Program-made: the position numbers and the translations under genes
Shown here: positions 4,517 through 40,206 of the stretch, in pieces
Position numbering within the stretch: the first letter of the stretch is position 1
Layout: every line of letters starts with the position of its first letter
Assembly: GCA_017460085.1 (NCBI GenBank)
Contig: JAFUBQ010000009.1
Coordinates: 6,237 to 70,236 of the forward strand
From: Alphaproteobacteria bacterium
GTDB taxonomy: Bacteria > Pseudomonadota > Alphaproteobacteria > RF32 > CAG-239
Direction of reading: 5' to 3'
DNA length: 64,000 nt
The notes under the pieces: generated by a model
What the model was told of the DNA's origin: nothing
Seen by the model: only the letters and a program-made list of their open reading frames with translations
Databases searched by the model: none

Positions 4517-6196
4517 TTATTCCTCTTCATCATTATCATAAACAATTTCAGGCGCTGAAAAATCAACTATTTCATTTTCATCTGCCTCATCAACGGCGCG
4601 CCGAATGATTGTTTCAATTCTAGCACCGTTAAATTCACTAAGTATAGCGCGAACAAGCGGATATTCAGAGATATTTTTCTTATCTCCGCTGATTTTTTGC
4701 CGTTCTTTATCTGCCAACGTTTCACCCAGCGGCTCATAATCAATATCAACTTTCCAATGCTGTGCGGTTTCTGCTTCTAAAAAATGTTTCAACCGCGCCA
4801 CTAAATCTTTATCCGTATTTATATCAACCGCCAAATGTATTTTACCGTTGGAAAATTCTTTAAATGTTAGCTTATGCATAACATCAAACTGCAGCAACGG
4901 TTGCTTTTTGGCAATCATTAATTTAAGCATGTCATCGGTAGAATCCAAGATAACGGCATCACTGTTTTCTGCTAAATCAACAGCCGCAGCAACTCCGCCA
5001 TCTGTTTGCACAGCACTATGATTACTTATTGTGGATTTTTTTTTTAATTCCTTCAGCAAATCTGCAGGACTAGGAAGCGAGGCTGAATATGCAATACGCA
5101 TCAATATCATCTCCAGCGCATCTATTTGTATGTTGGCATATTGTATTTCACTCAAACCTTTAATCAACATCTGCCAAATTTTAGAAAGAATGCTGATTGG
5201 AACGGCGCTGAGTTTTTTGCACATTTCTCGGTCATTTTCGCTAACCGAAGCATCATTCACAAAATCCGGCAAAATAATAACCTTTGCCAATAAATGCGTA
5301 ATATCAATCATATCCTGCAAAACGAGCATCGGTGTTGCGCCGTTAGTATATTGTTGCTCTAAAAGCTGCAGCGTTGCGGCAATATCACCTTCCAACAATT
5401 TTTCATACAAAGCAAAAGTTTGCTGCCGGTCAGCTAGACCCAGCATATTTTTAACCGCATTCACAGCAACTTCGCCATTACCCAGCACAATTGCCTGATC
5501 TAACATTGAAAGTCCGTCACGCGCCGAACCGTCTGCTGCCCGTGCTACCAAACGCAATGCTTCATCTTCAAAGTTAACTTTTTCAGCTTGCAGAACTTTT
5601 CTAAACAACGTCATCAGCGTTTCAATACTCAATCGCTCTAAATCAAAACGTTGGCAGCGCGATAATATGGTAACCGGAACTTTGCGAATTTCCGTAGTGG
5701 CAAAAATAAACTTAACATGTGCCGGCGGTTCTTCCAAAGTTTTCAGCAATGCATTAAACGCACTTTTTGAAAGCATATGCACTTCATCAATAATATAAAC
5801 TTTATAACGCGCACTCACCGGTTTATAGCGCACACCGTCCAAAATTTCGCGCATATCATCAACACCGGTTTTTGAGGCAGCATCAAGCTCTATAACATCA
5901 ATATGCCTGTCTTCGGCAATAGCTCTGCAATTTTCGCATTCGCCGCAAGGGTGAATAGTCGGACCGCCCTGCCCGTCTGTGCCAATGCAATTTATGGCTC
6001 TGGCAATCAGCCGTGCTGTTGTCGTTTTGCCCACGCCTCGAATACCTGTTAAAATATAGGCATGGTGCAAACGATTATTTTGTATGGCGTTTGTCAGTGT
6101 TTGCACTAAGGCATCTTGTCCCAACAAATCTTCAAATTTTTGCGGACGATATTTGCGTGCCAGCGCTACATATTGATTATTATTTTCTTCTGCCAT
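4517..6196 (-). CDS. dnaX: DNA polymerase III subunit gamma/tau
   Basis: ALARKYRPQKF, GIRGVGKTT, IDEVHMLS, SRC motif; start at MAEENN. Confidence 0.98.
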   Translation of the reverse strand: MAEENNNQYVALARKYRPQKFEDLLGQDALVQTLTNAIQNNRLHHAYILTGIRGVGKTTTARLIARAINCIGTDGQGGPTIHPCGECENCRAIAEDRHIDVIELDAASKTGVDDMREILDGVRYKPVSARYKVYIIDEVHMLSKSAFNALLKTLEEPPAHVKFIFATTEIRKVPVTILSRCQRFDLERLSIETLMTLFRKVLQAEKVNFEDEALRLVARAADGSARDGLSMLDQAIVLGNGEVAVNAVKNMLGLADRQQTFALYEKLLEGDIAATLQLLEQQYTNGATPMLVLQDMIDITHLLAKVIILPDFVNDASVSENDREMCKKLSAVPISILSKIWQMLIKGLSEIQYANIQIDALEMILMRIAYSASLPSPADLLKELKKKSTISNHSAVQTDGGVAAAVDLAENSDAVILDSTDDMLKLMIAKKQPLLQFDVMHKLTFKEFSNGKIHLAVDINTDKDLVARLKHFLEAETAQHWKVDIDYEPLGETLADKERQKISGDKKNISEYPLVRAILSEFNGARIETIIRRAVDEADENEIVDFSAPEIVYDNDEEE

Positions 6197-27744: not shown

Positions 27745-28105
27745 ACAAAAAAACCTCGAAAGGTGGCTTCATAAATTGGAACTGGCAATGGGATTATTCC
27801 GCTTCGCTCCATTCACTGCGCTCATCGCTTCGCCGACCGGCATACTCTCGTCTTCTTGCTTAAATTTACTTTCTTTATTTTTTCTATGGAAAATTTAAGC
27901 TTCGGACACTCGGTTGCGATTTTTTCGCTGTGCGGCGCTGTTGCTTGCTTGCTCAAAAGCAACCTTCGCCCGTCGTCAACAAAAAACATTTTGAGGTTTT
28001 TTGTTTTTCTCCGGCTTTCGCTTGTGGTCGGACCACTTCTTCGTGGGTCCTCATCCCGCCGTTCCTCATAACACAAAAAAGGCCGCCCTTCGGCGACCTC
28101 TTGTG
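27745..28105 (-). repeat. tRNA-Gly-linked non-coding modular element between an att copy and a degenerate tRNA 3' copy
   Basis: Shares modules with 42040-42280; degenerate tRNA-Gly 3' copy at 27775-27795 (19/21 match); terminators at both ends. Confidence 0.75.
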
Positions 28106-28108
28106 TTA
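28066..28108. terminator. Ancestral tRNA-Gly terminator
   Basis: ATAACACAA...GGCCGCCCTTCGGCGACC...TTGTGTTAT long hairpin next to att copy. Confidence 0.75.
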
Positions 28109-28129
28109 TTGGAGCGGGCAATGGGATTC
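28106..28129 (-). repeat. att site (displaced tRNA-Gly 3' end)
   Basis: Identical to 40128-40151. Confidence 0.92.
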
Positions 28130-28340
28130 CGAGTTTTATACTCTGTAACATACTGTTTTAACTGGAAAATATTGCAAATTTGTCCAAAAATTCCGAACAT
28201 TGATGTCTCATATAAAAAACTCTTATCATAGCCTATTTTGCTTGTCAAGAGCGATATTTGATTTTTTACGGATATTTTAAACAAGCGCATATACAAATAC
28301 TGGGCGTTAAACCCAGTATTTGCCGAAAGGAAAAGCCTTT

Positions 28341-28781
28341 TTAGAACAATTTTCGCAACTCGCTTACACCTTTGTAGTCATCTAAAACATCATTACAGTT
28401 TGTTAGACTTCTCAACATCGCATTCAATGCGCTTGAAAACATAGGACTTTCATCATATTTGAAGTGCTTGGTAAGCAACTGGTTCTGATAGATGTAATGA
28501 ACCTGCTGATTACCATTATGTTTGATATATTCAACTACAGGAAAACCATGATATTTGAACCCCATCTCCCATAACTTTACAAGTCTGCCGATATGAATAC
28601 GCTGAATACTTCTATATCCAGCGCATCCACCGATACTGAAAATGGTAAAGCAATCAATTACAACCGATGCGTTTGGTGTTCCGAGAGCAAACTTATCTCT
28701 ATTACGATATATTTGCTTGAAGTTGCCGATAAACCATTTCCTATCATTTGCTATTCTTTGGTAGATGCTTTCTGCTATCAT
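28341..28781 (-). CDS. Hypothetical protein
   Basis: 146 aa ORF, last of a co-oriented overlapping run; followed by hairpin 28294-28322. Confidence 0.7.
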   Translation of the reverse strand: MIAESIYQRIANDRKWFIGNFKQIYRNRDKFALGTPNASVVIDCFTIFSIGGCAGYRSIQRIHIGRLVKLWEMGFKYHGFPVVEYIKHNGNQQVHYIYQNQLLTKHFKYDESPMFSSALNAMLRSLTNCNDVLDDYKGVSELRKLF

Positions 28782-28956
28782 TTTCCTTCACCATTGCCTG
28801 ATAAAATACTGTGTAGCGAGGTGGATGTGTCATTGTTGCTATTCCACCAACCAACTGCCAGCCTTTTTTAAGTCTCTCATTCACTGCCTTTATTAAGTCA
28901 TCTAAAAACGCATCACATACTACATCATACTTCATCATCTTAATATTCCTCCGCAT
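28744..28956 (-). CDS. DUF1737 domain protein
   Basis: YDVV...LIKAVNERLKKGWQLVGGI...YQAMVK pattern. Confidence 0.7.
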   Translation of the reverse strand: MRRNIKMMKYDVVCDAFLDDLIKAVNERLKKGWQLVGGIATMTHPPRYTVFYQAMVKENDSRKHLPKNSK

Positions 28957-29266
28957 ACATTATTGTTAATACTTTATGAGCCAAGCGCACACCGCTGATA
29001 TATGGCGAAATATACAGAAACCGTGTGTCATACGTATCAATTTTCCAGAAGATTTTATGCCCCTTAAATATAAATGAACCAAAATCATGTTCGCCATAAG
29101 GGTCATTGCCTTTGGTAAATCGCTTAAAATTACGCACCTTTGCAATAATTTTAGCAATGTCTTTGGCTGAATTACATCTGATTCCATCAGTCAGGATAAG
29201 CACACCTTTTGACGGATGCTGCCGAAAATCATCGTTTTCAGCAGCAATCGTAGCAGCATCAGTCAT
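28940..29266 (-). CDS. DUF3768 domain protein
   Basis: NDDFRQ...NDPYGEHDFGSF...IFWKIDTYD...VLTIMYAEEY pattern. Confidence 0.85.
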   Translation of the reverse strand: MTDAATIAAENDDFRQHPSKGVLILTDGIRCNSAKDIAKIIAKVRNFKRFTKGNDPYGEHDFGSFIFKGHKIFWKIDTYDTRFLYISPYISGVRLAHKVLTIMYAEEY

Positions 29267-29269
29267 TTT

Positions 29270-29782
29270 TTATGCTTTCAACTGTTCCAAAACATAATCA
29301 TCATCAAATGCTTGGTTATTTTTGGCGATGTCATAAGCCGTTTGACCTTTATTATTTTTAATAGTCAGGTCAGTTTTTGCCATCAATCCACGAACAACAT
29401 TCATACGCATTGATACTTGCGGATGATGTAGCGCATCCATCAATGGTGTCCAACCATCATTATCTTGTGCGTTTGGATTAGCACCGACATCAATAAGCAA
29501 TGCCAAACATTCAAACGAACTGCGATGCCGTGCCATTATATGTAATGGCGTTGAACCTTCATCATTTTGAGAATTGACATTTCCACCTTGTTGTAAGAAT
29601 AACTGGATAATCTCTGGGTTTGAATGTTCCTTACAAACCCACAAAAATGGTGTCCATTTATGATGGTTATAAGGCAAATTTACCTTTACACCTTTAATAA
29701 ACAAATCTTTAACTGTATTGAAATCATCTTCATATAATGCGTTCATTAACTGCTGACGCATATCATTCTGAATATTAGTCAT
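29270..29782 (-). CDS. Ankyrin repeat protein
   Basis: KWTPFLWVC, GSTPLHIMA, GWTPLMDAL, GQTAYDIA repeats. Confidence 0.9.
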   Translation of the reverse strand: MTNIQNDMRQQLMNALYEDDFNTVKDLFIKGVKVNLPYNHHKWTPFLWVCKEHSNPEIIQLFLQQGGNVNSQNDEGSTPLHIMARHRSSFECLALLIDVGANPNAQDNDGWTPLMDALHHPQVSMRMNVVRGLMAKTDLTIKNNKGQTAYDIAKNNQAFDDDYVLEQLKA

Positions 29783-29993
29783 CTTAAAATCTCCTGTTTA
29801 GTCCGCTTTAAGTGGGACAAGTTTGGTTAAATTCACTTTTCGCTTATGATTTAAACATATCAGCGATTCACTGTCAAGCAATTAATTATAAAAAAATAAA
29901 TTAATTTCTTGATTCTACATGATTTTATTTTAAATTCAGTGACTTGAATCAGTCATAAATATTATTAGTAGATAATAAAATTACAGGAGAACT

Positions 29994-30314
29994 ATGATGA
30001 AAGTATTGATTGAAACCATTAAGAACCGCAAAGGATACAAGCATTTCAAAGATGAAAATGATATGAATGACTATTTGAGTAAGCATAGCGATAGTATTGC
30101 TAATTATGAAATATTAAATGAATACGATGTTGCTGTTGAAGAAACAAATGAAATGCTTCAATCATTCATTGATGACTGTGAAACAATACACAACAAGTTG
30201 TTCTGGTTATTTAGACAGCACGAGCGTATAAACGAAAAGTATTCATTGAAACTTATAAATGCTGCTGGTCGTCTCTATGATGGTATAAGTGCCATTAAGA
30301 AATGCTTGAGATAA
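29994..30314 (+). CDS. Hypothetical protein
   Basis: 106 aa ORF with CAGGAG SD. Confidence 0.7.
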   Translation: MMKVLIETIKNRKGYKHFKDENDMNDYLSKHSDSIANYEILNEYDVAVEETNEMLQSFIDDCETIHNKLFWLFRQHERINEKYSLKLINAAGRLYDGISAIKKCLR

Positions 30315-30327
30315 TTAAACCGACATA

Positions 30328-30942
30328 TTATTGTGTCGGTTCTTTCGTGGAGTAATTTTCATCTTCATTTGTATTATTATCCGCTGTCGGTGGAATATAT
30401 ACAACACCTCCGCAATCTATCAATAAGTTGGCTATTTCTATTTCCATTTGATTTAATGCCATCATTAAAGGTGTTTCAAAACGCACGTTAATCCAATTTA
30501 CATCAATTCCATTATCAATCAATAATTTGATTGCCTTTAGTTTCATATCCGTAGGCATATTTGGATTTTGAATTACATACATTAAAGCATTTTCACCAAG
30601 CGCGTCATTTCTGTTTATCTCTGCTCCCTTACTTATGATATATTCAATTCCTTCTGTATCTTCGCTCATACCGCAGGAAATTAACAATAATGTTCTTCTC
30701 ATTTTATCCATTGGTGCTTCTAATTTGAAATAAGGATTATCCGTCATTAGTTTTTCTATACTTTTGGCATCATCAACCAATAAATGATATTCTTCTGTTT
30801 TATTTGTATCAGGTATTTCATCAAATGGCTTATACTGAACTCTGCTGCTGATTTTCTTGAGTTCATTAAGTGCTGTTTCAATTTCACTGATGTGATAATA
30901 TCTGCTGTATGTATTGGTGTTTTTATTATATGATTTTATCAT
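30328..30942 (-). CDS. Ankyrin repeat protein
   Basis: GENALMYVI, NGIDVN, FETPLMMAL; AGGAG SD. Confidence 0.8.
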   Translation of the reverse strand: MIKSYNKNTNTYSRYYHISEIETALNELKKISSRVQYKPFDEIPDTNKTEEYHLLVDDAKSIEKLMTDNPYFKLEAPMDKMRRTLLLISCGMSEDTEGIEYIISKGAEINRNDALGENALMYVIQNPNMPTDMKLKAIKLLIDNGIDVNWINVRFETPLMMALNQMEIEIANLLIDCGGVVYIPPTADNNTNEDENYSTKEPTQ

Positions 30943-31440
30943 AATTTTCTCCTTAATTTATTATTATGTCAATTACCTCATAAAATATTTATTGAGTGAA
31001 TTTTGGTGATTTGAATTTGAGCAAATTGACCCGATAAATATTCGTGTAGTCCTCCTTTATGACTATTTTTATTATTATGAATATAAATCTCATTTTAGCA
31101 GCACAGTCCTGTCGTGCTGCTTTTCCTTTGAAATTACATAATATTTTTATGTGCGAGCAATTTATACGATTCATTTGTTGTCAATATAATTATTTGTATT
31201 TCGGATAAATTTATTACTTTAAATCGGATGGGTAATTTGCTATTATAATTTTGTAAGTTAAATGGATGTCTTCAATCCCATTTTATTGGCTTTTCCTTCT
31301 ATTTTAATACCGAATAAAAAGGAAATATATTTTTGCTGGAAGTCTATTATAATATATTTTTTCTTTCTATTTTAATTATATTATAGGACTTTAAAACACC
31401 TCTAAAAGTGGCTCTATATAATGGATTGATGATTTGTATA

Positions 31441-31584
31441 CGGAAACATTTATTTTCGGCAACGGAAATACAAATATTCACCAACGGAAATATCCATTTC
31501 AAAAGCGGAAACAGTTATTTCCAAATATTTTAAATACGGAAATATTCATTTTTAACATATTTAAAAGTGGAAATATCCATTTCC
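31441..31584 (+). repeat. Six phased (C/T)GGAAA-cored direct repeats, iteron-like
   Basis: Starts at 31441, 31463, 31485, 31506, 31537, 31568; best consensus CGGAAATATCCATTTC. Confidence 0.7.
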
Positions 31585-31630
31585 GATACTCATAAACAAT
31601 AGATTTAATAATAAACATAGGAGTAATTGA

Positions 31631-32158
31631 ATGCCTGAAAGTATAGAAAAAATAACAAGAGCAAAGAGAGATATTATACAGTTTATCATTTTCAGAACCA
31701 AAAGCAGACCGACATTTTTCGGCAGCAATAAAAATATTGCCAACGAATTACAACTGAAAGAAAGTTCAGTCAAAGTAATGATAAACCAACTTATAAGAGA
31801 TGGATATTTGATAAAAGAAATGCGTGGCAAGCAGCGTCATTTATTATATACAGGAAAACCAGTGCCACGATGCTATGAGAATTTTGCTAATACTGATAAA
31901 CATATACTGGTACAAGATATTGATAATTATAAACGAGATGCCGAATATTATCAAAAGGAATATAATGCCGAGCATTATCACTGCGAGCAAGTTTTGAAAG
32001 AGAATTCATTACAAAAGGATAAATTATTTGAACAGCAAGCAGAACTTTATCATAAGGATATTATTATTGACTCATTGCTGGCAGAACTATTTCCACAAAA
32101 TAATATACCTGCAATGGAAATGTATGATGAAAATAACAATTTGATAGCAACATTTTAA
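31631..32158 (+). CDS. Winged-HTH protein with coiled coil, putative replication/regulatory protein
   Basis: SNKNIANELQLKESSVKVMINQLIRDGYL HTH; AGGAG SD; downstream of the repeats. Confidence 0.65.
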   Translation: MPESIEKITRAKRDIIQFIIFRTKSRPTFFGSNKNIANELQLKESSVKVMINQLIRDGYLIKEMRGKQRHLLYTGKPVPRCYENFANTDKHILVQDIDNYKRDAEYYQKEYNAEHYHCEQVLKENSLQKDKLFEQQAELYHKDIIIDSLLAELFPQNNIPAMEMYDENNNLIATF

Positions 32159-32173
32159 TATAGGAGAAGTAAT

Positions 32174-32326
32174 ATGAATAATACAAAAAACTGGCTTTAT
32201 AAATGGATTAATAGTAATTCAACTCAATATACCTCAAAAAATTGGATACACAGATGGATTAGTAGCAGTTCAGCACTAACTCCGACAAAAGATTGGTTAA
32301 ATAAATGGAGCAAAACAGGAATGTAG
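32174..32326 (+). CDS. 50 aa Trp-rich repeat peptide (below ORF-track cutoff)
   Basis: AGGAG SD; MNNTKNWLYKWINSNSTQYTSKNWIHRWISSSSALTPTKDWLNKWSKTGM. Confidence 0.65.
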   Translation: MNNTKNWLYKWINSNSTQYTSKNWIHRWISSSSALTPTKDWLNKWSKTGM

Positions 32327-32558
32327 TCTTAATAGCAGACGGCATTTTTTATATGTAATTTATAAAAATTGAGAAAAAATAATCAGAAATTTTAATGGGA
32401 AAAATTGAAAATCAGGTTTTTCAAAAATCAAAACTATAAAATTTCAGCGTAATTTTATAGTCAAAAATCGCACTTTACACGGTTAGAAGCCATATTTTAC
32501 CTGATTTTCAGCCCAAAATTGCACTAATTTAAATGTTTTATAGTCAGATACTATAAAT

Positions 32559-33170
32559 TTATAGTGTATTTTCCAGTTCCATACGTTTAATGAACCGTGA
32601 GAGTGTCATATACTGAACACCCATAATTTTTGATATTTGGTTCTTTGAAACACCTTTGGCTAATAAATCTTGAATGCGCCTGATATTTTTTGATAGTTTC
32701 AAACGTTTTGATGCCGCTCCGACAGGACGACCGAGTTTTATGCCGTGTTCTTTTTTTGATGCTAATGAACACTTTGTGCGCTGCGAAATTAAATCTCGTT
32801 CTATTTGTGCTGCCAATCCAAAAGCAAAGGCAAGCACCTGTGATTGTAAATCATTACCAAGCCGATAATTCTCTTTAATAGTTATAATCTGACAATTTTT
32901 ATTCAGGCATATTTGTAAAATGGAAAAAGTTTCAGGCACACTGCGGCTGATACGGCTTAATTCGCTGGTGATTAAAATATCATTCGGTTGGAGTTTATCC
33001 AATAATTCACCGAGTTTTCGTTTGTGTAGCGGTTTGCGAGAAGATATTGTTTCTTCAATCCATTCATCTATTTTCATATTATTTTTAGCCGCATACTCAT
33101 TTATTTCATACTCCATATGCTGATAAGATTGTTTTTCGGTACTCTTTCTGATATATCCATATGTTGTCAT
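32559..33170 (-). CDS. Serine recombinase resembling the Bacteroides Mpi master invertase family
   Basis: YGYIRKST (catalytic Ser), EETIS, SELSRISR, IKENYRLGNDLQSQVLAFAFGLAAQIERDLISQRTK, C-terminal HTH. Confidence 0.88.
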   Translation of the reverse strand: MTTYGYIRKSTEKQSYQHMEYEINEYAAKNNMKIDEWIEETISSRKPLHKRKLGELLDKLQPNDILITSELSRISRSVPETFSILQICLNKNCQIITIKENYRLGNDLQSQVLAFAFGLAAQIERDLISQRTKCSLASKKEHGIKLGRPVGAASKRLKLSKNIRRIQDLLAKGVSKNQISKIMGVQYMTLSRFIKRMELENTL

Positions 33171-33235
33171 TGCATTTCCTTTTGTTGTATTTATCACTAA
33201 TAACAATAAGTTATGCATAAAAAGTTCCTCAAAAA

Positions 33236-33410
33236 AAAGGAACGATAAAATCAACTAGTTTTTTCACTAAAATTAACAATTTTTTTTGTAGATACAATTT
33301 TCACTAAATTTTGTATTAAACCTTATATTTCAATGATTTCAGCATATTTAATAATCTCAAATGAAAATACATAAACGCAAATATCACTCATTCAACATAA
33401 TCGTTCCTTT
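33236..33410. promoter_or_regulatory. Candidate invertible segment bounded by 11-bp inverted repeats
   Basis: AAAGGAACGAT (33236-33246) and ATCGTTCCTTT (33400-33410) between the invertase and adhesin starts. Confidence 0.45.
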
Positions 33411-33488
33411 ATGTTAAGGCTTGAATCGTATAACTTACCAAAGTTATGCAAAACAGAGATTTTATATAAAATTTTATGAGGTAATAAT

Positions 33489-35750
33489 ATGAATAGTATA
33501 AAGAAAAATGTTTTGCTTAGTGCAACTGCGTTAGGTCTTGTATTTTCATTTAATGCAAATGCTGATACAACAATAACAAAAGAGGCATTACTTGCAGATT
33601 TAAACGACACAACATATACTGATGGCTCATTTGATACATCAATGGGTAAACAATATGTTAGTGGGGGCGATTGGTCAGATGAATATGCTCAATATAAGTT
33701 TGATTCAAATAATGATGGCGAAGCAGATGCTTCATTATCAGGGAAAACACTCGGAGATACATCTATTGATTTTACTCAAGAGGCTTTCCAATTCACCGAC
33801 CAAAATGGTGATACAACAGATTTATCAGAGAAACCAACTGGTTTGAATACTACTGATTTTGATAAAGCTGCAACAATCATTGCGGCTGAAGTCGGTACAT
33901 CTTCACATAGTGGTAATAATCTAGGTACTACAACAACAGTTACTCAGGATACATATTCTTATATGGCTGATACGACAGGCACAGGAACACCAACCGCACA
34001 TACATTGACAGATAATGCTCCTGCATTAACAGATTTTTCTAAAACAATTACTTTGACAGGTAGCCAAAATCATGGCGATGTAGTTGTAACTGGTGATTCA
34101 GATGATGGAATGCCTCAACAAAGCGACTATACGTTTATCATTACAAAGGCGGATAATACTGAATCTGGTAAAATTTCTTGGGTTAAAACAGGAAGTAGTT
34201 ATACAATTAATGCTTCTGTTGAAGGAGATTTGGATAATGATGCTGATATGGCAGCCGCTATTGCGCAAGCAAAATTAGAATTCCAAGCATATAGCAATGA
34301 TGTAACAGCATTTAATAATGCTAAAGCAACAAATGCTACTAATCTTGATACAGCAACATCAAATTATAACACAGTAAATAATGCTTATACAGCCGATGCT
34401 GCACTTCAAGAAAGTATCACAACAAATTACAATAACTATACAACTTCATATTCTACCGCAGATACAAATCGTATAGCGGCAAAGACTGCTTTGAATGATA
34501 CATTTACGCAATATACAACTGACGTTAATAAATATACGACAGCAAAAGCAGCGGTTGATGCTTATGACAATTCCATATCTGCTGCTGTTGATAACAGGTC
34601 ACAAAATCAAATCAGTGAATCATTAAAAGATGGTGGAGCAGTTAAAACTGCAATTGATAATGCTGTTGCTTATGATAATACAACATCTGGTTTAGAAGCA
34701 ACAACTATGCAGGATGCTATTGATGAAAATGTAAAAGCAATTGCTGACGAAGCAGAACGTGCTGATGCCGCTGAAAAAGCAAATGCAAAAGCAATTGCTG
34801 ACGAAGCAGAGCGTGCTGATGCCGCTGAAAAAGCAAATGCAAAAGCAATTGCTGACGAAACAGAACGTGCTGATGCTGCTGAAAAAGCAAATGCAAAAGC
34901 AATCGCTGATGAAGCAGAACGTGCTGATGCTGCTGAAAAAGCAAATGCAAAAGCAATTGCTGACGAAGCAGAACGTGCAACTACGGCAGAAACTAATTTA
35001 GATAAAGCCATTAAAGCCGAAGTAAAAAGAGCAACAGGCATTGAAGGTGATATGGCTAACTTAGAAGCAACTTACAGCGGCAATCTTGCTGCTAAAGGTT
35101 CAACAATTGCTGAACACTTTGCTGCTGTTGATACTCGTATGGGTAAAATTAACAATCTGTTTGATGGTTCAAAAGTAAATTCAACAACTGTTAAATCAAC
35201 AACAGGCGCAGGTTCTAACTTAGCAAAAGGAACAACAGTGGAAGACCACCTTGTAAGCATTGATAATGCAATCGGTGACAGAACAAATCTTGGTTCAAAG
35301 AATGCATCTGTTAATAGTGAAGTTAAGACCAGTGTTGCTGCAGGTTTGAAAGCCGCAGGTGATGCAATTGGTGATGCTGACTTCTCTACAACTAAATATG
35401 CTGTAGGCGCAACAGACCTTTCTTCTGCAATCAGACAATTAGACACATCTATGGCAGAAACTCAAGCACACAATGATGCTCGTTTTGCTGCAATAGATAA
35501 TCGCATTGATGGATTGCGTAAAGAAATGAGACAAGGTTTGGCTGCTACTTCTGCATTAGCAGGTTTAGTTCCGCTTGATAATTCATACAAAACACAGTTA
35601 AGTATGGCTATGGGTGGATACGAAGACAAACAAGCCGTTGCACTCGGTGGTTTCCATTATATCAAAGATAACATCATTTTGAATGCTGGTGTTGCATATG
35701 GTGGAAGCAAGAGTACTGCTTATAAAGTTGGCGTAACTTTTGGTTTCTAA
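33489..35750 (+). CDS. Trimeric autotransporter adhesin (YadA-type anchor)
   Basis: Signal peptide; Thr/Asp/Ala-rich passenger; coiled-coil stalk; anchor RQGLAATSALAGL...AYKVGVTFGF. Confidence 0.92.
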   Translation: MNSIKKNVLLSATALGLVFSFNANADTTITKEALLADLNDTTYTDGSFDTSMGKQYVSGGDWSDEYAQYKFDSNNDGEADASLSGKTLGDTSIDFTQEAFQFTDQNGDTTDLSEKPTGLNTTDFDKAATIIAAEVGTSSHSGNNLGTTTTVTQDTYSYMADTTGTGTPTAHTLTDNAPALTDFSKTITLTGSQNHGDVVVTGDSDDGMPQQSDYTFIITKADNTESGKISWVKTGSSYTINASVEGDLDNDADMAAAIAQAKLEFQAYSNDVTAFNNAKATNATNLDTATSNYNTVNNAYTADAALQESITTNYNNYTTSYSTADTNRIAAKTALNDTFTQYTTDVNKYTTAKAAVDAYDNSISAAVDNRSQNQISESLKDGGAVKTAIDNAVAYDNTTSGLEATTMQDAIDENVKAIADEAERADAAEKANAKAIADEAERADAAEKANAKAIADETERADAAEKANAKAIADEAERADAAEKANAKAIADEAERATTAETNLDKAIKAEVKRATGIEGDMANLEATYSGNLAAKGSTIAEHFAAVDTRMGKINNLFDGSKVNSTTVKSTTGAGSNLAKGTTVEDHLVSIDNAIGDRTNLGSKNASVNSEVKTSVAAGLKAAGDAIGDADFSTTKYAVGATDLSSAIRQLDTSMAETQAHNDARFAAIDNRIDGLRKEMRQGLAATSALAGLVPLDNSYKTQLSMAMGGYEDKQAVALGGFHYIKDNIILNAGVAYGGSKSTAYKVGVTFGF
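34733..34978 (+). repeat. 54-bp tandem repeat, ~4.5 copies (KAIADEAERADAAEKANA)
   Basis: Units start at 34733, 34787, 34841, 34895, 34949. Confidence 0.95.
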
Positions 35751-35763
35751 GGTTGAGCAACTG

Positions 35764-35794
35764 GAGAAGGGCATACTTTGCCCTTCTCTTTTTT
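35764..35794 (+). terminator. Intrinsic terminator after adhesin
   Basis: GAGAAGGGCA-loop-TGCCCTTCTC plus T-tract. Confidence 0.85.
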
Positions 35795-35809
35795 TATAAG
35801 GGTAAATTT

Positions 35810-36268
35810 ATGATAAAATATATACTTTCTATAATTGCAATAGTGGCTCTTAATATCGGAACGTTATTCTGTTATACAAGATTAGTTTCTATTCCTAAAA
35901 TTGCCGTTGTGGATATATCTAAAATTGTTGAAAAGTCAGAAAAAGTAAAAGAATTACGAGATGACAACAATAAAAAACTTGATGAACTTGAACAGTGGAT
36001 TGAAGAATCAAGAGTAAAAGTTCAAAAAGAAAAAGATAAAGCAAAAAAAGAACAGTTAATTGACCAATATCAAGATATAGCACGCCAGAGAGAAAATATC
36101 ATCAAGCATAACTATGAAGCAAAATTACAAGAGATAAATGATGAAATATCTGCAACAATAAAGAAAACAGCAAAAAATAATGAATGCAACGTAATTATAT
36201 TGAATAATGTTATTATGGAAGGTGGCTTAGACATTACAGATGAAGTATTAAAAAATTTGCCGATGTAA
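35810..36268 (+). CDS. OmpH/Skp family periplasmic chaperone
   Basis: N-terminal hydrophobic segment, KIAVVDISKI, coiled coil, GGLDITDEVLKNL. Confidence 0.85.
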   Translation: MIKYILSIIAIVALNIGTLFCYTRLVSIPKIAVVDISKIVEKSEKVKELRDDNNKKLDELEQWIEESRVKVQKEKDKAKKEQLIDQYQDIARQRENIIKHNYEAKLQEINDEISATIKKTAKNNECNVIILNNVIMEGGLDITDEVLKNLPM

Positions 36269-36741
36269 TAGATTAAATCAATAAATTTTTTCATATCTAT
36301 TAAGAGTTGGAGCAGGTAATATAGTTAATTTAACGATATAGTTGCTATCTACTTTGCTCTATAGGCACAGTGTTAGTTCCAAAAATGTGCCGAATGGGAA
36401 GTTATCGCCATACTTCCCATTTTTTATTAGTTATTTTATGGGAAATCAACAATTATTTGTGGATAAATGTACAGTTAATGCAAAAACATTATTGTTCTAT
36501 AAAATATGCCCAAACAATAATATTATTATACAAATAATAATTAAAATATATTGATTGTATATTCTATATTTGATTTAAAAATGAACACTCTGCAGTAGGA
36601 AAATTATGTAAATTATTAAATTTCAGAAAACAATTAACTACTGTTATGTAATGCAAAGACGATTTTACGCTTACATTCGGAGGAATACATATAATTATAG
36701 TACATTATATAACTTAAAGAATGTATTATATAAATCTATAA

Positions 36742-37302
36742 CTATATCTTCTCAATATCTTTCAAATATCCGTATAATGTCGGTCGGCTGATATGTAGTT
36801 CTTTAGCGATTTTGGTTAAGGAATAACGCTTGGCATACATATCTTTGGCAATTTCAATTTGTTCTGCCGATAATTTTTTCTTTCTTCCCTTGTACTTTCC
36901 TTCAGCCTTTGCTAGGGCAACTCCTTCACGCACACGAGATGCTATCAATTCACGTTCCATTTCTGCCACAGCACCGAGCATTGTCAGCATTAACTTTTGT
37001 ATTGGGTCATTTGTATCGCTGCTGAATGTCAAATTCTCTTTCTTAAAATGAATAGTAGCACCTTTTTTAGTAATTGTATCAACAATTTCCAAAAGGTCTC
37101 TTGTATTGCGAGCCAATCTACTCATTTCGTGAACCTCTACTCTGTCATTTGGTCTTATAATATCAAGCATTAACTGTAATTGTGGTCTATCTGTATTCTT
37201 GCCTGATAACTTATCTTCAAAAATTCTGTCATAATCATTATCAACAAGTTGTCGTGCATCATTTTGATGAGTGGTTGAAGTTCTAACATAAAGTATTTTC
37301 AT
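36742..37302 (-). CDS. Serine resolvase/invertase with C-terminal HTH
   Basis: LYVRTST, FEDKLSGK..DRPQL, MSRLARN, ERELIASRVREG, GRKKKL, ISRPTLY. Confidence 0.93.
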   Translation of the reverse strand: MKILYVRTSTTHQNDARQLVDNDYDRIFEDKLSGKNTDRPQLQLMLDIIRPNDRVEVHEMSRLARNTRDLLEIVDTITKKGATIHFKKENLTFSSDTNDPIQKLMLTMLGAVAEMERELIASRVREGVALAKAEGKYKGRKKKLSAEQIEIAKDMYAKRYSLTKIAKELHISRPTLYGYLKDIEKI

Positions 37303-37681
37303 TTTTCCTATTCCTTATCTATAAAGTTTATTATGTTATACTTTACAAATTGTAAAATGTCAATACTTTTATATGTAATTTTTACAATTTTTATATGTTA
37401 TCTTTACACTTGGTAAGTATTATGTATGACTGTAGTCTATTTTTACATACATCAGCATCATTTTTTTATATAAATTTTATAATCTGATATAAAAAATATT
37501 TTCAAATGAAACAAACACATAATCAATAGTTATAATTTTAAATCATTTCGTCTGTGAAAAAGTATATAAAATTAACATCTTTTTAATTGTATTGAATAAA
37601 AATGCTGCTCGGAATAAACATTAAATATACTTAAATTATACAATTTTTGTATATCAACTCTATTTGTAAAGGATTAAAAAA

Positions 37682-38173
37682 ATGGCGAATAATCAAGAAA
37701 ATAGCACGAAGAAAACTATTACTTATGAAGGATGGAGCGATAAAGTTGCTTCTGATGTATTAAATAATTCTAAAATGGAAAAAGTTAAAGCAAGCATTAA
37801 AAATAATATTGCGATGAATATAAATTATTATCAGCATAATATTGATAATGCTATGAAATTATCTCCTACCGTTAGAATTTTGAAGGATATGGAAGATTAT
37901 ACAACAGTTATTCTGCGTTGCGGCACATTCCCGATTTGGAAAAATACTGTTAAAAAAGGTGTATTTAAACCTGTTGAAATTCTTGAAGATTTGAAGGCAA
38001 AAGTTGATGCTGACTTCTTTAAGAAAGAAATTCTCTCATATTTGGATAAGAAAAAGGCAAGTTCTTCAAACACTACTGATAGTAGCAGTAAAGGCAAAAA
38101 GTCTGGTAAAGGTAAATCAAGCAGCAAAGCATCCGCTTCTAAAAGCAAAAAAGAAACAACCTCTGCCGAATAA
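37682..38173 (+). CDS. Hypothetical protein with Lys/Ser-rich tail
   Basis: 163 aa ORF, AAAGGA SD, followed by hairpin 38189-38216. Confidence 0.75.
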   Translation: MANNQENSTKKTITYEGWSDKVASDVLNNSKMEKVKASIKNNIAMNINYYQHNIDNAMKLSPTVRILKDMEDYTTVILRCGTFPIWKNTVKKGVFKPVEILEDLKAKVDADFFKKEILSYLDKKKASSSNTTDSSSKGKKSGKGKSSSKASASKSKKETTSAE

Positions 38174-38212
38174 TGTATAATTTGATATAAGGGGGATGTA
38201 ATTTCATCCCCT

Positions 38213-39997
38213 TTATTCATTCATTTCCTTTATTAACTTCAAATTTTGTTCTAAAAACGGATACTTCAACTTTGAAATTTCTTTATACAAATTCTCTAAT
38301 TTGAATGCTCCGCCATATACAATTTCACCTGTGTCACTTCCTTGCCATCCACATAAGGCATTTTGATATTCTTGCGGCACACCACTATCACGAAGAAATT
38401 GCTTGCAGCAATGTCTTATACTATGAAATGTATACGATTTATTACTTAATCCTATCTTATCTAAGTATCTGCCGAACCAATGTGATACTTGTGAGCGATA
38501 ATATTTGCTCTCGTGATACTTCAATTTAGGAAACAATCGCTCTTGTTTCGCATTTCGCATTGATTTAACAAAGTCAATAAATCCCATCTCCTTCAACTTC
38601 GGATGAACAGGGATGATTCGCCTTGATTGCCGTGTTTTAAGGTGCTGGTCTTCTCGCTCATCGGTCAGTTGGAAGTACCATATCTTGTTGTCATACTTAA
38701 CATCAGCCACATACAACTGTGCGATTTCGTTCAGGCGGCATCCTGTGTAAAGTGCTATCAGCGGTATCCAATAGTTATGGTAGTTCCGCAAGTCCTTTTT
38801 CCGTGGGTACGTTAAAGGGTTAAATATCAACTTCAACTCATTTTCGCCAAACCCGTCTATTTTCTTTTCCTGCTCTTTTTTCGGAATATCTACATCGTCA
38901 TCTAAACTTTCGATGATGTAGCGCCTCCTTTTAGCGAAGCGGAGCAACTCTTTGAACTGGCGCAGGTACTTGATTGCGTTCGTTTTAGACACGGTTGGGT
39001 ATCCCTTTTCAAACAGAGCCTTGAAATCACTGGCTTTTAAATTTTCGGGATTTTTTACTATTGTGTGTAGCCTTACAGGCAATTTAAAAATTATGTCGCT
39101 GATACGTTGGCAATCTTTGTACGTAATATCCTCAATATATTTTTTACCGATAATTCCAAAAATTATTTGTAGCCTTTTAAAACTTTGCTCTAAACTGTAA
39201 TTTGTAATGTTGCTGATATTTTTTTTGCGTTCCTTCAGTTCATTAAAAATATCTTGCCACTTGGTTTGTGATTTTTGCGATTTTAAAACTTCTTCCGTGC
39301 GCTGCTTATCAACAGCAATTAAGCAGTGCCGAACTCGTGGATGTAAATTTGAACTTAACGGAGTGTCATTTTGTAAACTGGTAATTTTGCTATCCACAAA
39401 TTTATCAACACCACGCATCGCTGATAATAACATCATCTGCGGTTTTTCAATTTCGTTAGCATTACTGATAAGAGGTATATCTTCATCAATAATTCGGTTA
39501 AATTGTTTTGCTATGCTCGGATTTGGTCTGCTGTCAATTACATCTTTCACATAACCTTGGAAATATTCTTCGGCTTTTTCTATTTCGTAATATTTTTCAG
39601 TCGTATCAGGATGTAATTTCTTTTCTTCTTCAAATTCTTTTTCAGGAAACATTTTAACAGCATCAGCATCAAATGTATCTTCCATTATGCTGTCATACTT
39701 AATTTCAAAAACTTCATCCAGTTGCTTTAATTTATGGACTATGATTCTATCAACATCCGCCAAGTCCATTTTGATTTTGCCATCTTTTATCAGCATCGCC
39801 ATTTGCCTCAATAAGTTGAACTTCAGGTCTATTCTATAACTCTCTTTACGCAGCAGCGCAAGTGCTTCCCAATAGTTATTCGTATGTAAAGTGTATTTGA
39901 ACTCACGCCTGCCAGCGAGAATTTGTATCGAATCGGGAACCTTAGCCCTGATATAATAAGTATGATTGCGTCTCACCAGACGATTGAAACCGAACAT
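38213..39997 (-). CDS. Tyrosine integrase with DUF6538-like N-terminus
   Basis: N-terminus LVRRNHTYYIRAKVP; YTGCRLNE, HLKT, HSIRH, CGW, distal Tyr; GAGAGG SD before MFGFN. Confidence 0.93.
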   Translation of the reverse strand: MFGFNRLVRRNHTYYIRAKVPDSIQILAGRREFKYTLHTNNYWEALALLRKESYRIDLKFNLLRQMAMLIKDGKIKMDLADVDRIIVHKLKQLDEVFEIKYDSIMEDTFDADAVKMFPEKEFEEEKKLHPDTTEKYYEIEKAEEYFQGYVKDVIDSRPNPSIAKQFNRIIDEDIPLISNANEIEKPQMMLLSAMRGVDKFVDSKITSLQNDTPLSSNLHPRVRHCLIAVDKQRTEEVLKSQKSQTKWQDIFNELKERKKNISNITNYSLEQSFKRLQIIFGIIGKKYIEDITYKDCQRISDIIFKLPVRLHTIVKNPENLKASDFKALFEKGYPTVSKTNAIKYLRQFKELLRFAKRRRYIIESLDDDVDIPKKEQEKKIDGFGENELKLIFNPLTYPRKKDLRNYHNYWIPLIALYTGCRLNEIAQLYVADVKYDNKIWYFQLTDEREDQHLKTRQSRRIIPVHPKLKEMGFIDFVKSMRNAKQERLFPKLKYHESKYYRSQVSHWFGRYLDKIGLSNKSYTFHSIRHCCKQFLRDSGVPQEYQNALCGWQGSDTGEIVYGGAFKLENLYKEISKLKYPFLEQNLKLIKEMNE

Positions 39998-40023
39998 TGG
40001 TGTCACCTCTCTTTTGGCGTTGT

Positions 40024-40062
40024 CGGTGTACCACCTCGGTGTACCACCTTGGTGTATCACCC
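40024..40062. repeat. Three 13-bp tandem repeats (CGGTGTACCACCT), putative integrase arm sites
   Basis: Between the integrase start and att core. Confidence 0.6.
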
Positions 40063-40094
40063 CCGAAAAAACACCTCTGCTCGGATATTTTGTA

Positions 40095-40127
40095 AAAAAA
40101 ATGACGTAAGAACAACATCTTACGTCT
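40095..40127 (-). terminator. Element-supplied terminator for tRNA-Gly
   Basis: GACGTAAGA-loop-TCTTACGTC followed by T-tract on minus strand. Confidence 0.75.
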
Positions 40128-40131
40128 TTAT

Positions 40132-40206
40132 TGGAGCGGGCAATGGGATTCGGACCCACGACATCAACCTTGGCAAGGTTGCGCTCTACCCCTGAGCTAT
40201 ACCCGC
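40132..40206 (-). tRNA. tRNA-Gly(GCC), CCA encoded, atypical T-loop TCCGAAT
   Basis: GCGGGTATAGCTCAGGGGTAGAGCGCAACCTTGCCAAGGTTGATGTCGTGGGTCCGAATCCCATTGCCCGCTCCA folds as a cloverleaf. Confidence 0.95.

What the first reader, a model, noticed from the sequence alone, without database searches (positions are those of the whole stretch)
32559..33488. Mpi-like invertase facing away from an adhesin across an inverted-repeat-bounded segment: candidate phase-variation switch
Seen: a perfect 11-bp inverted repeat (33236-33246 / 33400-33410) enclosing 153 bp. The right copy sits inside AACATAA-N8-TTATGTT. Nearby are ATAACTT-ACCA-AAGTTAT and a direct repeat AAGTTATGCA (33208, 33441). Established: Bacteroides Mpi flips promoters of surface-structure loci. 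Inference: ON/OFF control of the adhesin by a recombinase probably acquired from Bacteroidetes. I could not place a convincing promoter inside the segment.
Basis: partly seen in the sequence, partly recalled or inferred. Interest (0 to 1): 0.64.

Follow-up and report, generated by a model that had tools for sequence, protein, structure and literature searches.

The report
Invertible half-promoter switch for an adhesin
A 153-bp stretch of DNA between a recombinase gene and a surface-adhesin gene of an uncultured rumen bacterium occurs in both orientations in public data, and it probably turns the adhesin on and off by moving one half of its promoter.

Summary
A perfect 11-bp inverted repeat (33236-33246 / 33400-33410) bounds 153 bp between a serine recombinase gene (32559-33170, minus strand) and a YadA-type trimeric autotransporter adhesin gene (33489-35750). 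The repeat alone is not beyond chance: 74 of 1000 shuffles give one as long.

The inversion itself is shown. Three public assemblies that encode the identical recombinase carry the segment exactly flipped (1 mismatch in 281 nt). Flipped junctions or the whole flipped form also occur in three further datasets. In one of these, the same allele is present in both orientations.

The recombinase matches NCBI's Mpi-family model over its full length (253 bits, cutoff 272) and only faintly resembles Gin or Tn3 resolvase.

The locus belongs to a large cassette family in gut Alphaproteobacteria, with 227 related loci. Each invertase sits divergent from a variable cargo gene, and two conserved CG-centred sites lie between them.

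The likely mechanism is inferred, not shown. The segment carries only a -35 element (TTGATT). The -10 lies in fixed DNA beside the cargo gene, so the crossover site sits in the promoter spacer. The window is in the predicted OFF state. RNA 5' ends (33426, 33447, 33448) lie downstream of the repeat, as this model predicts.

Acquisition from Bacteroidetes is unsupported.

The parts
32559..33170 (-). Small serine recombinase (203 aa, begins MTTYGYIRKSTEKQ), Mpi-family-like invertase
   Evidence: PF00239 1.3e-27 with a weak C-terminal HTH. NF009949 'master DNA invertase Mpi family' 253.4 bits, residues 4-200 on profile positions 3-199 of 203, cutoff 272. Gin 35 bits, Tn3 resolvase 22.6 bits.
33214..33243 (-). 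Terminator-like hairpin (GTTCCT-N8-AGGAAC followed by TTTTTAT) between the switch and the recombinase gene; its stem uses the outer half of the left repeat
   Evidence: 7 pairs, T-run. (-9.1 kcal/mol, z -5.2, 0 of 200 shuffles fold as well). A role as an insulator is inferred.
33236..33246 (.). Left inverted repeat, the recombinase-proximal recombination site core (AAAGGAA-CG-AT); crossover mapped to AACG, 33241-33244
   Evidence: The hybrid allele in the flipped X6 contigs places the crossover left of 33245. The identity core shared across the family is AACG(W)T.
33247..33399 (.). Invertible segment, 153 bp
   Evidence: Found reverse-complemented with unchanged flanks in L081, L082 and L083 (1 mismatch in 281 nt). 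Also flipped in an X26 contig (0 mismatches). Flipped junction contigs occur in X6 and X15.
33249..33254 (-). -35-like hexamer TTGATT at the inner end of the segment (family-conserved GGTTGATTTWAW-CG); after inversion it would lie at 33392-33397 on the + strand
   Evidence: Present at this position in 37 of 38 family loci, facing the cargo gene in 5 and the recombinase in 32. The promoter function is inferred.
33394..33415 (.). Dyad AACATAA-N8-TTATGTT spanning the right repeat; exists only in the window's orientation
   Evidence: Its family counterpart CACAA-N8-TTGTG has changed on both arms. The fold is weak at -4.5 kcal/mol. Function unknown.
33400..33410 (.). Right inverted repeat, the adhesin-proximal recombination site core (AT-CG-TTCCTTT)
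   Evidence: A variant allele changes both arms together: 33245 A>T with 33401 T>A.
33412..33420 (+). Fixed extended -10-like element TGT-TAAGGC, 17 nt from where TTGATT lands after inversion
   Evidence: It is the positional homologue of the family's conserved RTG(N)-TAnnnT. An RNA 5' boundary at 33426-33430 lies 6-10 nt downstream. It is a weak match to the consensus; function inferred.
33428..33449 (+).
   Evidence: 9-bp stem; the whole 75-nt UTR folds at -11.9 kcal/mol, z -2.25. (X25 starts at 33448, X29 at 33447).
33489..35750 (+). Trimeric autotransporter adhesin (753 aa) with a signal-peptide-like N-terminus, a 54-nt x 4.7 tandem repeat and a YadA anchor; the controlled cargo gene
   Evidence: PF03895 4.9e-12. 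Tandem repeat at 34727-34978. Transcribed in rumen metatranscriptomes.
35753..36268 (+). OmpH/Skp-like periplasmic chaperone gene directly after the adhesin, probably co-transcribed
   Evidence: PF03938 2.3e-10. The same adhesin-OmpH pair lies next to the homologous invertase in L006.

Best explanation
This is a working DNA-inversion switch (inverton) for a surface adhesin.

Shown:
- The 153-bp segment at 33247-33399 inverts precisely between the two 11-bp repeats. The crossover lies within AACG (33241-33244 / 33402-33405).
- Both orientations exist in natural rumen populations.

Inferred:
- The adjacent Mpi-family-like serine recombinase catalyses the inversion.
- The segment does not carry a whole promoter. 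It carries a -35 element (TTGATT, preceded by an A-rich tract) 4 nt from one end.
- The -10 (TGT-TAAGGC, 33412-33420) and the transcription start (about 33426-33430) lie in fixed DNA on the adhesin side, so the recombination site sits in the promoter spacer.
- In the window's orientation (state A), TTGATT faces the recombinase, where a terminator-like hairpin follows, and the adhesin promoter lacks a proper -35. This is the OFF or low state.
- After inversion (state B), TTGATT - 17 nt - TAAGGC is assembled and the adhesin-Skp operon is transcribed. This is the ON state.

The locus is one member of a modular cassette family in gut Alphaproteobacteria. The family couples invertase, two sites and a half-promoter to many different cargo genes.
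For: **Inversion at this locus**
- L081, L082 and L083 are three assemblies that encode the identical recombinase. Each matches a construct with 33247-33399 reverse-complemented at 280 of 281 nt, against 100 mismatches to the native order.
- A 262-nt X26 contig reads 33193-33235(+) / 33236-33410(-) / 33411-33454(+) with 0 mismatches.
- X6 and X15 hold flipped left- and right-junction contigs whose loose ends match the predicted junctions letter for letter.
- In X15 the same variant allele occurs in a native junction (depth 5.6) and a flipped junction (depth 3.6).
- The two repeat arms change together in a variant allele (33245 A>T with 33401 T>A).

**Recombinase**
- Mpi-family HMM 253 bits over the full length.
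- The catalytic motif YIRKST is intact.

**Family**
- 227 related loci exist, of which 80 were fetched.
- Nearly all have a divergent ORF 210-320 bp upstream of the recombinase.
- 38 loci, counting the window itself, share AAACCAA-CG-... and ...-CG-TTCTAWT sites 109-157 bp apart.
- L043 and L055 have identical flanks (150/150 on both sides). Their segments are 135/136 identical only as reverse complements.

**Split promoter**
- In 37 of 38 loci, exactly one inner end has TTGAnn at the position that lies 17 nt from a conserved TAnnnT in the cargo-side flank.
- All five loci found in state B give a 17-nt spacer, and one of them carries the consensus TTGACA.

**RNA**
- The adhesin is transcribed in rumen metatranscriptomes.
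- RNA contigs start at 33426, 33447, 33448, 33487 and 33526.
- None enters the segment in native orientation.
Against: - The window's -10 candidate TAAGGC is a poor match to TATAAT.
- In state A the hexamer at the -35 position (TCAACA) also scores 4 of 6, so the contrast between the states may be modest, or the reverse of what I infer.
- No experiment or strand-resolved RNA data link orientation to expression.
- Contig ends are an imprecise proxy for transcription starts. The 33426 boundary comes from one low-depth chimeric contig.
- The flipped X26 contig comes from an RNA library but includes sequence upstream of the proposed start, so it is probably DNA carry-over or read-through.
- All read evidence is from assembled contigs, not raw reads, so within-strain switching frequencies are unknown.
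- Only 2 of 20 metagenome runs showed flipped junctions.
- That this particular recombinase performs the inversion is inferred from adjacency and family-wide linkage.
Confidence: 0.7

Rival explanations
1. Classical inverton. A complete promoter lies inside the segment (for example TTCACT-18-TATATT at 33300-33329, pointing at the adhesin in the window's orientation), so the window would be ON and the flipped form OFF.
For: The consensus scan finds this 9-of-12 match on the + strand. Most characterised invertons (fimS, Hin, Bacteroides polysaccharide loci) carry the whole promoter.
Against: - The scan found fewer promoter-like sites than expected by chance (4 against 5.7 in shuffles).
- No RNA contig from six metatranscriptomes covers 33336-33410 in native orientation. 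The 5' boundaries are at 33426 or later.
- The TTCACT/TATATT pair is not conserved in the family alignment, whereas the terminal TTGATT and the fixed -10 are.
Confidence: 0.12
2. The split promoter is real but with opposite polarity or only graded effect. State A (TCAACA or nGGnCA at the -35 position, together with the state-A-specific dyad AACATAA-N8-TTATGTT) is the expressed or regulated state, and state B is lower. Alternatively, both states express at different levels.
For: - TCAACA scores 4 of 6 in the window, equal to TTGATT.
- The other inner end is also conserved (nGGTCA) and forms a covarying dyad with the fixed flank, which suggests a protein-binding site specific to state A.
- State A is the majority state, while adhesin mRNA is readily found.
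Against: - The TTG triplet, the most important part of a -35, occurs at the correct position only on the TTGATT end in 37 of 38 loci. One locus has the full TTGACA consensus there.
- The spacer is exactly 17 nt in all five loci found in state B.
Confidence: 0.13
3. The inversion is real but is a by-product of a mobile or selfish recombinase cassette, or it regulates the recombinase itself, with no adaptive control of the adhesin.
For: The cassette (invertase plus about 200 bp) is highly conserved next to unrelated cargo genes and lies here on an integrative island. That pattern is compatible with a mobile module.
Against: - The cargo genes are the classes typically under phase variation: autotransporters, trimeric adhesins, a glycosyltransferase and a DNA methylase.
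- A conserved -10-like element sits at a fixed distance on the cargo side.
- Nothing resembling a -10 is placed 17 nt from TTGATT on the recombinase side.
Confidence: 0.05

Closest known systems
Bacteroides fragilis Mpi and its invertible polysaccharide promoters
   Same: - Small serine recombinase of the same HMM family (NF009949, 253 bits).
- Short inverted repeats bound a promoter-bearing segment of about 150-220 bp upstream of surface-structure genes.
- Gut habitat.
   Different: - Mpi is a single master enzyme acting on 13 distant regions (PMC4747536 citing Coyne 2003). Here each switch has its own adjacent, divergently transcribed invertase, and the 64-kb window holds only this one site pair.
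- Bacteroides promoters (-7/-33 type) lie wholly inside the segment. Here only a sigma-70-type -35 appears to be inside.
- The host is an alphaproteobacterium.
- The score is below the equivalog cutoff.
Salmonella Hin/hix-fljBA switch and the Gin/Cin/Pin invertases
   Same: - A serine invertase encoded next to its own invertible segment.
- Short inverted recombination sites.
- ON/OFF control of a surface antigen.
   Different: - Hin lies inside its 1-kb segment, which carries the entire promoter.
- Sequence similarity is faint (Gin 35 bits).
- No enhancer or Fis dependence could be examined.
- The segment here is only 153 bp, and the recombinase lies outside it.
E. coli fimS (FimB/FimE) and Clostridioides difficile RecV switches
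   Same: A local invertible element of a few hundred bp between a recombinase gene and an adhesin or surface-protein operon.
   Different: - Those use tyrosine recombinases.
- fimS carries the complete promoter.
- The C. difficile cwpV and flgB switches act after initiation, through termination.
Hybrid promoters created by insertion sequences (outward-facing -35 in the IS end plus a resident -10)
   Same: A promoter is assembled from a -35 on movable DNA and a -10 on fixed DNA, across a recombination junction.
   Different: Those arise by transposition, are not reversible on/off devices, and involve transposases rather than a site-specific invertase.

Membership tests
Small serine recombinases (resolvase/invertase) | N-terminal catalytic domain with the nucleophilic serine in a Y-x-R-x-S-T motif | tested here: met
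   PF00239 1.3e-27, residues 4-143. YIRKSTEKQ at residues 5-13.
Small serine recombinases (resolvase/invertase) | C-terminal helix-turn-helix DNA-binding domain | tested here: inconclusive
   HTH_23 and HTH_38 match at residues 162-197, but below their gathering scores. The alignment to Gin runs through residue 201.
Mpi family (NCBIfam NF009949, equivalog) | Score at or above the curated cutoff of 272 bits | tested here: not met
   253.4 bits, E 1.4e-75, full-length alignment. This is close to, but under, the cutoff. The next best family scores 33 bits.
Mpi family (functional definition) | One recombinase inverts many distant promoter regions that share an inverted-repeat consensus | tested here: inconclusive
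   Only one site pair in the 64-kb window. The family shows one invertase per switch and several cassettes per genome. The rest of the genome was not available.
Mpi family (functional definition) | Inverted repeats match the Mpi target consensus | not tested
   I recall the consensus as ARACGTWCGT but could not verify it in the held literature. The sites here share an AACG(W)T core. L073 and L079 carry AAACGTACGTTT.
Invertible promoter (inverton) | Segment bounded by inverted repeats and found in both orientations with identical flanks | tested here: met
   for this locus. for L043 and L055.
Invertible promoter (inverton) | Promoter carried on the invertible DNA | tested here: inconclusive
   Only a -35-like element is conserved on the segment. 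The -10-like element and the RNA 5' ends are outside it.
Invertible promoter (inverton) | Expression of the neighbouring gene depends on orientation | not testable with these tools
   This needs orientation-locked reporters, or raw reads from paired DNA and RNA.
Trimeric autotransporter adhesins | C-terminal YadA-like membrane anchor | tested here: met
   PF03895 4.9e-12, residues 699-753.

The most novel reading that the evidence does not exclude
Gut and rumen Alphaproteobacteria carry a previously undescribed, modular 'invertase plus half-promoter' cassette family, with hundreds of loci and several per genome. The serine-recombinase crossover site lies in the spacer between -35 and -10, so inversion assembles or dismantles the promoter rather than turning a complete one around. 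The same cassette has been coupled to adhesins, autotransporters, a glycosyltransferase and a C5 DNA methyltransferase (a potential phasevarion).
Probability: 0.55. Interest if true: 0.72.

Novelty: new variant of a known kind. Interest (0 to 1): 0.62.

Why it matters
Phase variation by promoter inversion is well known, but mostly from Bacteroidales and a few Proteobacteria that can be cultured. This is direct sequence evidence that an uncultured, host-associated alphaproteobacterial lineage uses a dedicated family of Mpi-like invertases, one per switch, to vary adhesins and other surface or epigenetic functions in the rumen and gut.

If the split-promoter reading is right, there are three consequences:
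- It explains why inverton finders that look for a whole promoter between long repeats would miss these elements. In most family members the repeats share only 6-7 bp.
- It gives a compact natural design: about 150 bp, with the recombination site inside the promoter spacer.
- It offers a ready marker (state A or state B) for reading adhesin and methylase phase states directly from metagenomes.

Tried and rejected
1. An in-segment promoter (TTCACT-18-TATATT). It is not conserved, promoter-like matches are no more frequent than in shuffles, and no RNA covers it.
2. A scan of the 80 loci for perfect inverted repeats of 10 bp or more and a scored-repeat scan. Both were too noisy or insensitive in AT-rich DNA. 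Listing CpG contexts is what revealed the conserved sites.
3. A -35 role for TTGATT toward the recombinase. No -10-like hexamer lies 16-18 nt away on that side.
4. A fixed promoter TTGAAT (33421-33426) with a -10 at 33444-33449. It is excluded because RNA contigs begin at or before 33447.
5. Rfam: no RNA family in 33000-33700 at E <= 1.
6. Verifying the Mpi repeat consensus. Coyne 2003 is not held and the string occurs in no held paper, so the consensus is not used as evidence.
7. Literature searches for this family or for a split-promoter inverton found nothing specific. That is absence in the held library, not proof of novelty.
8. The direct repeat AAGTTATGCA. A similar hairpin-like motif (ATAAC...GTTATGCA) lies in both flanks. 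No function could be assigned and it may be chance.

Full report
**1. The observation**

- AAAGGAACGAT at 33236-33246 and its exact reverse complement at 33400-33410 enclose 153 bp. The repeat extends to 20 nt at 85%.
- The right copy sits inside AACATAA-N8-TTATGTT (33394-33415).
- ATAACTT-ACCA-AAGTTAT lies at 33430-33447, and AAGTTATGCA occurs at 33208 and 33441.
- To the left, on the minus strand, is a 203-aa serine recombinase (32559-33170; PF00239 1.3e-27).
- To the right is a 753-aa protein with a YadA anchor (33489-35750; PF03895), followed by an OmpH/Skp-like gene.

On its own the repeat is unremarkable. In 74 of 1000 shuffles of the 318-bp spacer, an inverted repeat at least as long appears.

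**2. Does it invert? Yes.**

The region occurs in ruminant gut metagenomes. Contigs from most runs have the window's orientation, but several datasets hold the flipped form.

- Run X6 has 'opposite strand' joints at the repeats.
- Laying X6 and X15 on the left junction alone exposed the loose ends.
  - One X6 contig reads left flank ...GGAACG + TTTATGTTGAATGTGTGATACTTGCG. That is the repeat followed by the reverse complement of the segment's right end.
  - Contigs in X6 and X15 read ACGATTCAAGCCTTAACAT (the reverse complement of 33411-33429) followed by 33236-33318 with no mismatch. That is the flipped right junction (checked).
- In X15 a variant allele is present in both a native left junction (depth 5.6) and a flipped right junction (depth 3.6).
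- A metatranscriptome run (X26) holds a 262-nt contig that is 33193-33235(+) / 33236-33410(-) / 33411-33454(+) with 0 mismatches.
- Three public assemblies encode exactly the window's recombinase (L081, L082, L083). Each carries the whole switch flipped: 1 mismatch in 281 nt to a construct with 33247-33399 reverse-complemented, against 100 mismatches to the native order.

A de Bruijn assembler with 31-mers cannot cross an 11-bp repeat by mistake, so these junctions exist in the reads.

A variant allele changes both arms together (33245 A>T with 33401 T>A). The species representative L001 has a mixed pair of arms. The flipped X6 contigs carry the polymorphic base with the inner segment, which puts the crossover within AAAGGAACG.

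**3. The enzyme**

- The recombinase matches NCBI's 'master DNA invertase Mpi family' model end to end at 253.4 bits (cutoff 272). All other families score 33 bits or less.
- Among solved structures, the best matches are Gin (35 bits) and Tn3 resolvase (22.6 bits).
- A second, ordinary resolvase-type gene in the window (36742-37302) is only 27% identical to it and scores 73.8 bits on the Mpi model.

So the protein does not group with ordinary resolvases. That it catalyses this inversion is inferred from adjacency and from the family pattern below.

**4. The family**

Related loci number 227 in GTDB species representatives, and the best 80 were fetched. Nearly all are gut or rumen Alphaproteobacteria MAGs (for example Candidatus Enterousia, Candidatus Scatocola), often with two or three loci per genome.

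- Almost every locus has a divergent ORF 210-320 bp upstream of the recombinase.
- Listing the rare CpGs of the spacers revealed two conserved sites.
  - The proximal site, ATTTWAW-CG-TTCTAWT, lies 45-75 bp before the recombinase start.
  - The distal site, AAACCAA-CG-WTTGTGA, lies 109-157 bp further on.
  - Both are present under a strict pattern in 38 loci, counting the window itself.
- The window's sites are clear homologues: ATTTTAT-CG-TTCCTTT and AAAGGAA-CG-ATTATGT.
- In most members the two sites share only AACG(W)T. Combined with the window's mapping, the crossover lies in AACG (33241-33244).
- Some loci are in the opposite state. L043 and L055 have 150/150 identical flanks on both sides, while their segments are 135/136 identical only as reverse complements.
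- The L034 and L040 loci, with related cargo genes, were found in opposite states; the L039 and L042 loci, also with related cargo genes, likewise differ in state.
- The cargo genes tested include:
  - classical autotransporters (L015, L024);
  - trimeric adhesins (L021, L049, L006, the window);
  - a C5 DNA methyltransferase (L029);
  - a family-2 glycosyltransferase (L061);
  - an SPFH protein (L020);
  - many proteins with no Pfam match.

**5. How it most likely works (inferred)**

Aligning the segments and both flanks shows two conserved elements.
- GGTTGATTTWAW lies immediately inside one site. TTGATT, TTGACT, TTGAAA or TTGACA ends 4 nt from the CG.
- On the cargo side, the fixed DNA reads CG-TTGGTTT-RTG-(N)-TAnnnT.

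In the five loci of the strict 38-locus set where the TTGAnn end faces the cargo (L034, L036, L042, L043, L058), the spacer to TAnnnT is exactly 17 nt; L003, which falls outside that set, shows the same 17-nt arrangement. L034 has the consensus TTGACA.

Of 38 loci, 37 have TTG at this position on exactly one inner end. It faces the cargo in 5 and the recombinase in 32. No -10-like hexamer lies at promoter distance on the recombinase side.

The simplest reading is a split sigma-70-type promoter:
- the -35 (with an upstream A-tract) is on the invertible DNA;
- the -10 is on fixed DNA;
- the recombination site is in the spacer.

State B assembles the promoter (ON) and state A dismantles it (OFF or low). 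The window and L001 are in state A. L081-L083 are in state B, where TTGATT (33392-33397 after inversion) - 17 nt - TAAGGC (33415-33420, preceded by TGT) is formed.

**6. RNA evidence**

- The adhesin gene is transcribed in rumen metatranscriptomes.
- RNA contigs begin at 33448 (X25), 33447 (X29), 33487 (X26), 33526 (X28) and 33426-33430 (X27, at a snap-back-like joint).
- None extends into the segment in native orientation. This argues against the in-segment promoter candidate at 33300-33329.
- The boundaries fit a start 6-10 nt after TAAGGC.
- The first 20 nt of such an mRNA would form a 9-bp hairpin at 33428-33449. The two contigs that start at 33447 and 33448 begin at its 3' edge.

**7. Weak points**

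- TAAGGC is a poor -10.
- In the window, the state-A hexamer at the -35 position (TCAACA) scores as many matches as TTGATT.
- Contig ends are not mapped transcription starts.
- No data tie orientation to expression.
- All read evidence comes from contigs.
- The state-A-specific dyad (AACATAA-N8-TTATGTT here, CACAA-N8-TTGTG in the family) is conserved through changes on both arms and is unexplained. It could be a protein-binding site.
- A strong terminator-like hairpin on the minus strand (33243-33224 plus a T-run) overlaps the left repeat. It may insulate the recombinase gene from transcription leaving the switch.

**8. Context**

The switch lies on a 12-kb low-GC island (28106-40151). The island is bounded by a 24-bp direct repeat of the 3' end of tRNA-Gly. 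It carries a tyrosine integrase, two ankyrin-repeat proteins and the second resolvase-type gene.

**9. Comparison and novelty**

- It works like an inverton controlled by a local serine invertase.
- By sequence, the enzyme is nearest to Bacteroides Mpi. It fails the equivalog cutoff and does not show Mpi's one-enzyme, many-targets organisation.
- 'Acquired from Bacteroidetes' could not be tested, and the breadth of the family within Alphaproteobacteria does not suggest it.
- I found no description of this family, or of a natural inverton with the crossover site in the promoter spacer, in the held literature. That is not proof of novelty.
- I rate it a new variant of a known kind: the inversion is shown, the mechanism is inferred.

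Noticed in passing
window 28106-40151: A genomic island of about 12 kb. A 24-bp perfect direct repeat of the 3' end of tRNA-Gly (40128-40151) recurs at 28106-28129. GC is 0.28-0.37 against about 0.40 outside. A tyrosine integrase (38213-about 39995, minus strand) lies next to the tRNA. The whole switch-adhesin module lies on this island.
   Followed up: partly
window 27775-27795: A second, degenerate copy (21 nt, 90%) of the tRNA-Gly att repeat, 330 bp beyond the island's left end. It may be a remnant of an earlier integration.
   Followed up: no
window 36742-37302 (-): A second small serine recombinase (PF00239 plus HTH_7) on the island. It is only 27% identical to the switch invertase and scores 73.8 bits on the Mpi model. 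Its target is unknown.
   Followed up: partly
window 34727-34978: A 54-nt tandem repeat (4.7 copies, 94% matches) inside the adhesin gene, encoding AIADEAERADAAEKANAK units. It is a possible source of length variation in the adhesin stalk.
   Followed up: no
window 29270-29782 (-) and 30328-30942 (-): Two ankyrin-repeat proteins on the island (Ank_2 1e-34 and 6.7e-10). This is unusual cargo for a free-living bacterium and hints at interaction with a eukaryotic host or protist.
   Followed up: no
L029:4753-5742 (-): In this family member the cargo gene behind the switch is a C5 cytosine DNA methyltransferase (PF00145, 1.5e-94). That would make it a candidate phase-variable methylase (phasevarion) controlled by the same type of cassette.
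   Followed up: partly
L039 about 5945-5960; L006 about 5923-5934: In these loci the central CG of one of the two sites is mutated (TG/CA) while the other site keeps CG. If CG is the crossover dinucleotide, these switches would be locked in their present state.
   Followed up: no
L073:5845-5856 and 5951-5962; L079:49-60 and 156-167: Both sites are the self-complementary 12-mer AAACGTACGTTT. I recall this as fitting the Bacteroides Mpi repeat consensus, but I could not verify that consensus.
   Followed up: no
window 33201-33217 and 33430-33450: Both fixed flanks carry a similar small dyad ending in GTTATGCA (ATAAC-AATAA-GTTATGCA and ATAACTT-ACCA-AAGTTATGCA), in direct orientation. Its function is unknown and it may be chance.
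   Followed up: partly
window 33426 / 33608 (run X27): An RNA contig joins 33426-33532 to 33608-33672 on opposite strands. It looks like a snap-back cDNA artefact at a transcript 5' end, and I used it only as a weak indication of the start site.
   Followed up: no
family loci, proximal flank (e.g. L016:5952-6000): Between the proximal site and the recombinase start, the family conserves AAATTGACCGGTATTTTTAAGAAATTTTAAGGAG. The same TGACCGGT motif recurs just inside the distal end of the segment. How the recombinase gene itself is transcribed, and what binds these motifs, is unexplained.
   Followed up: no
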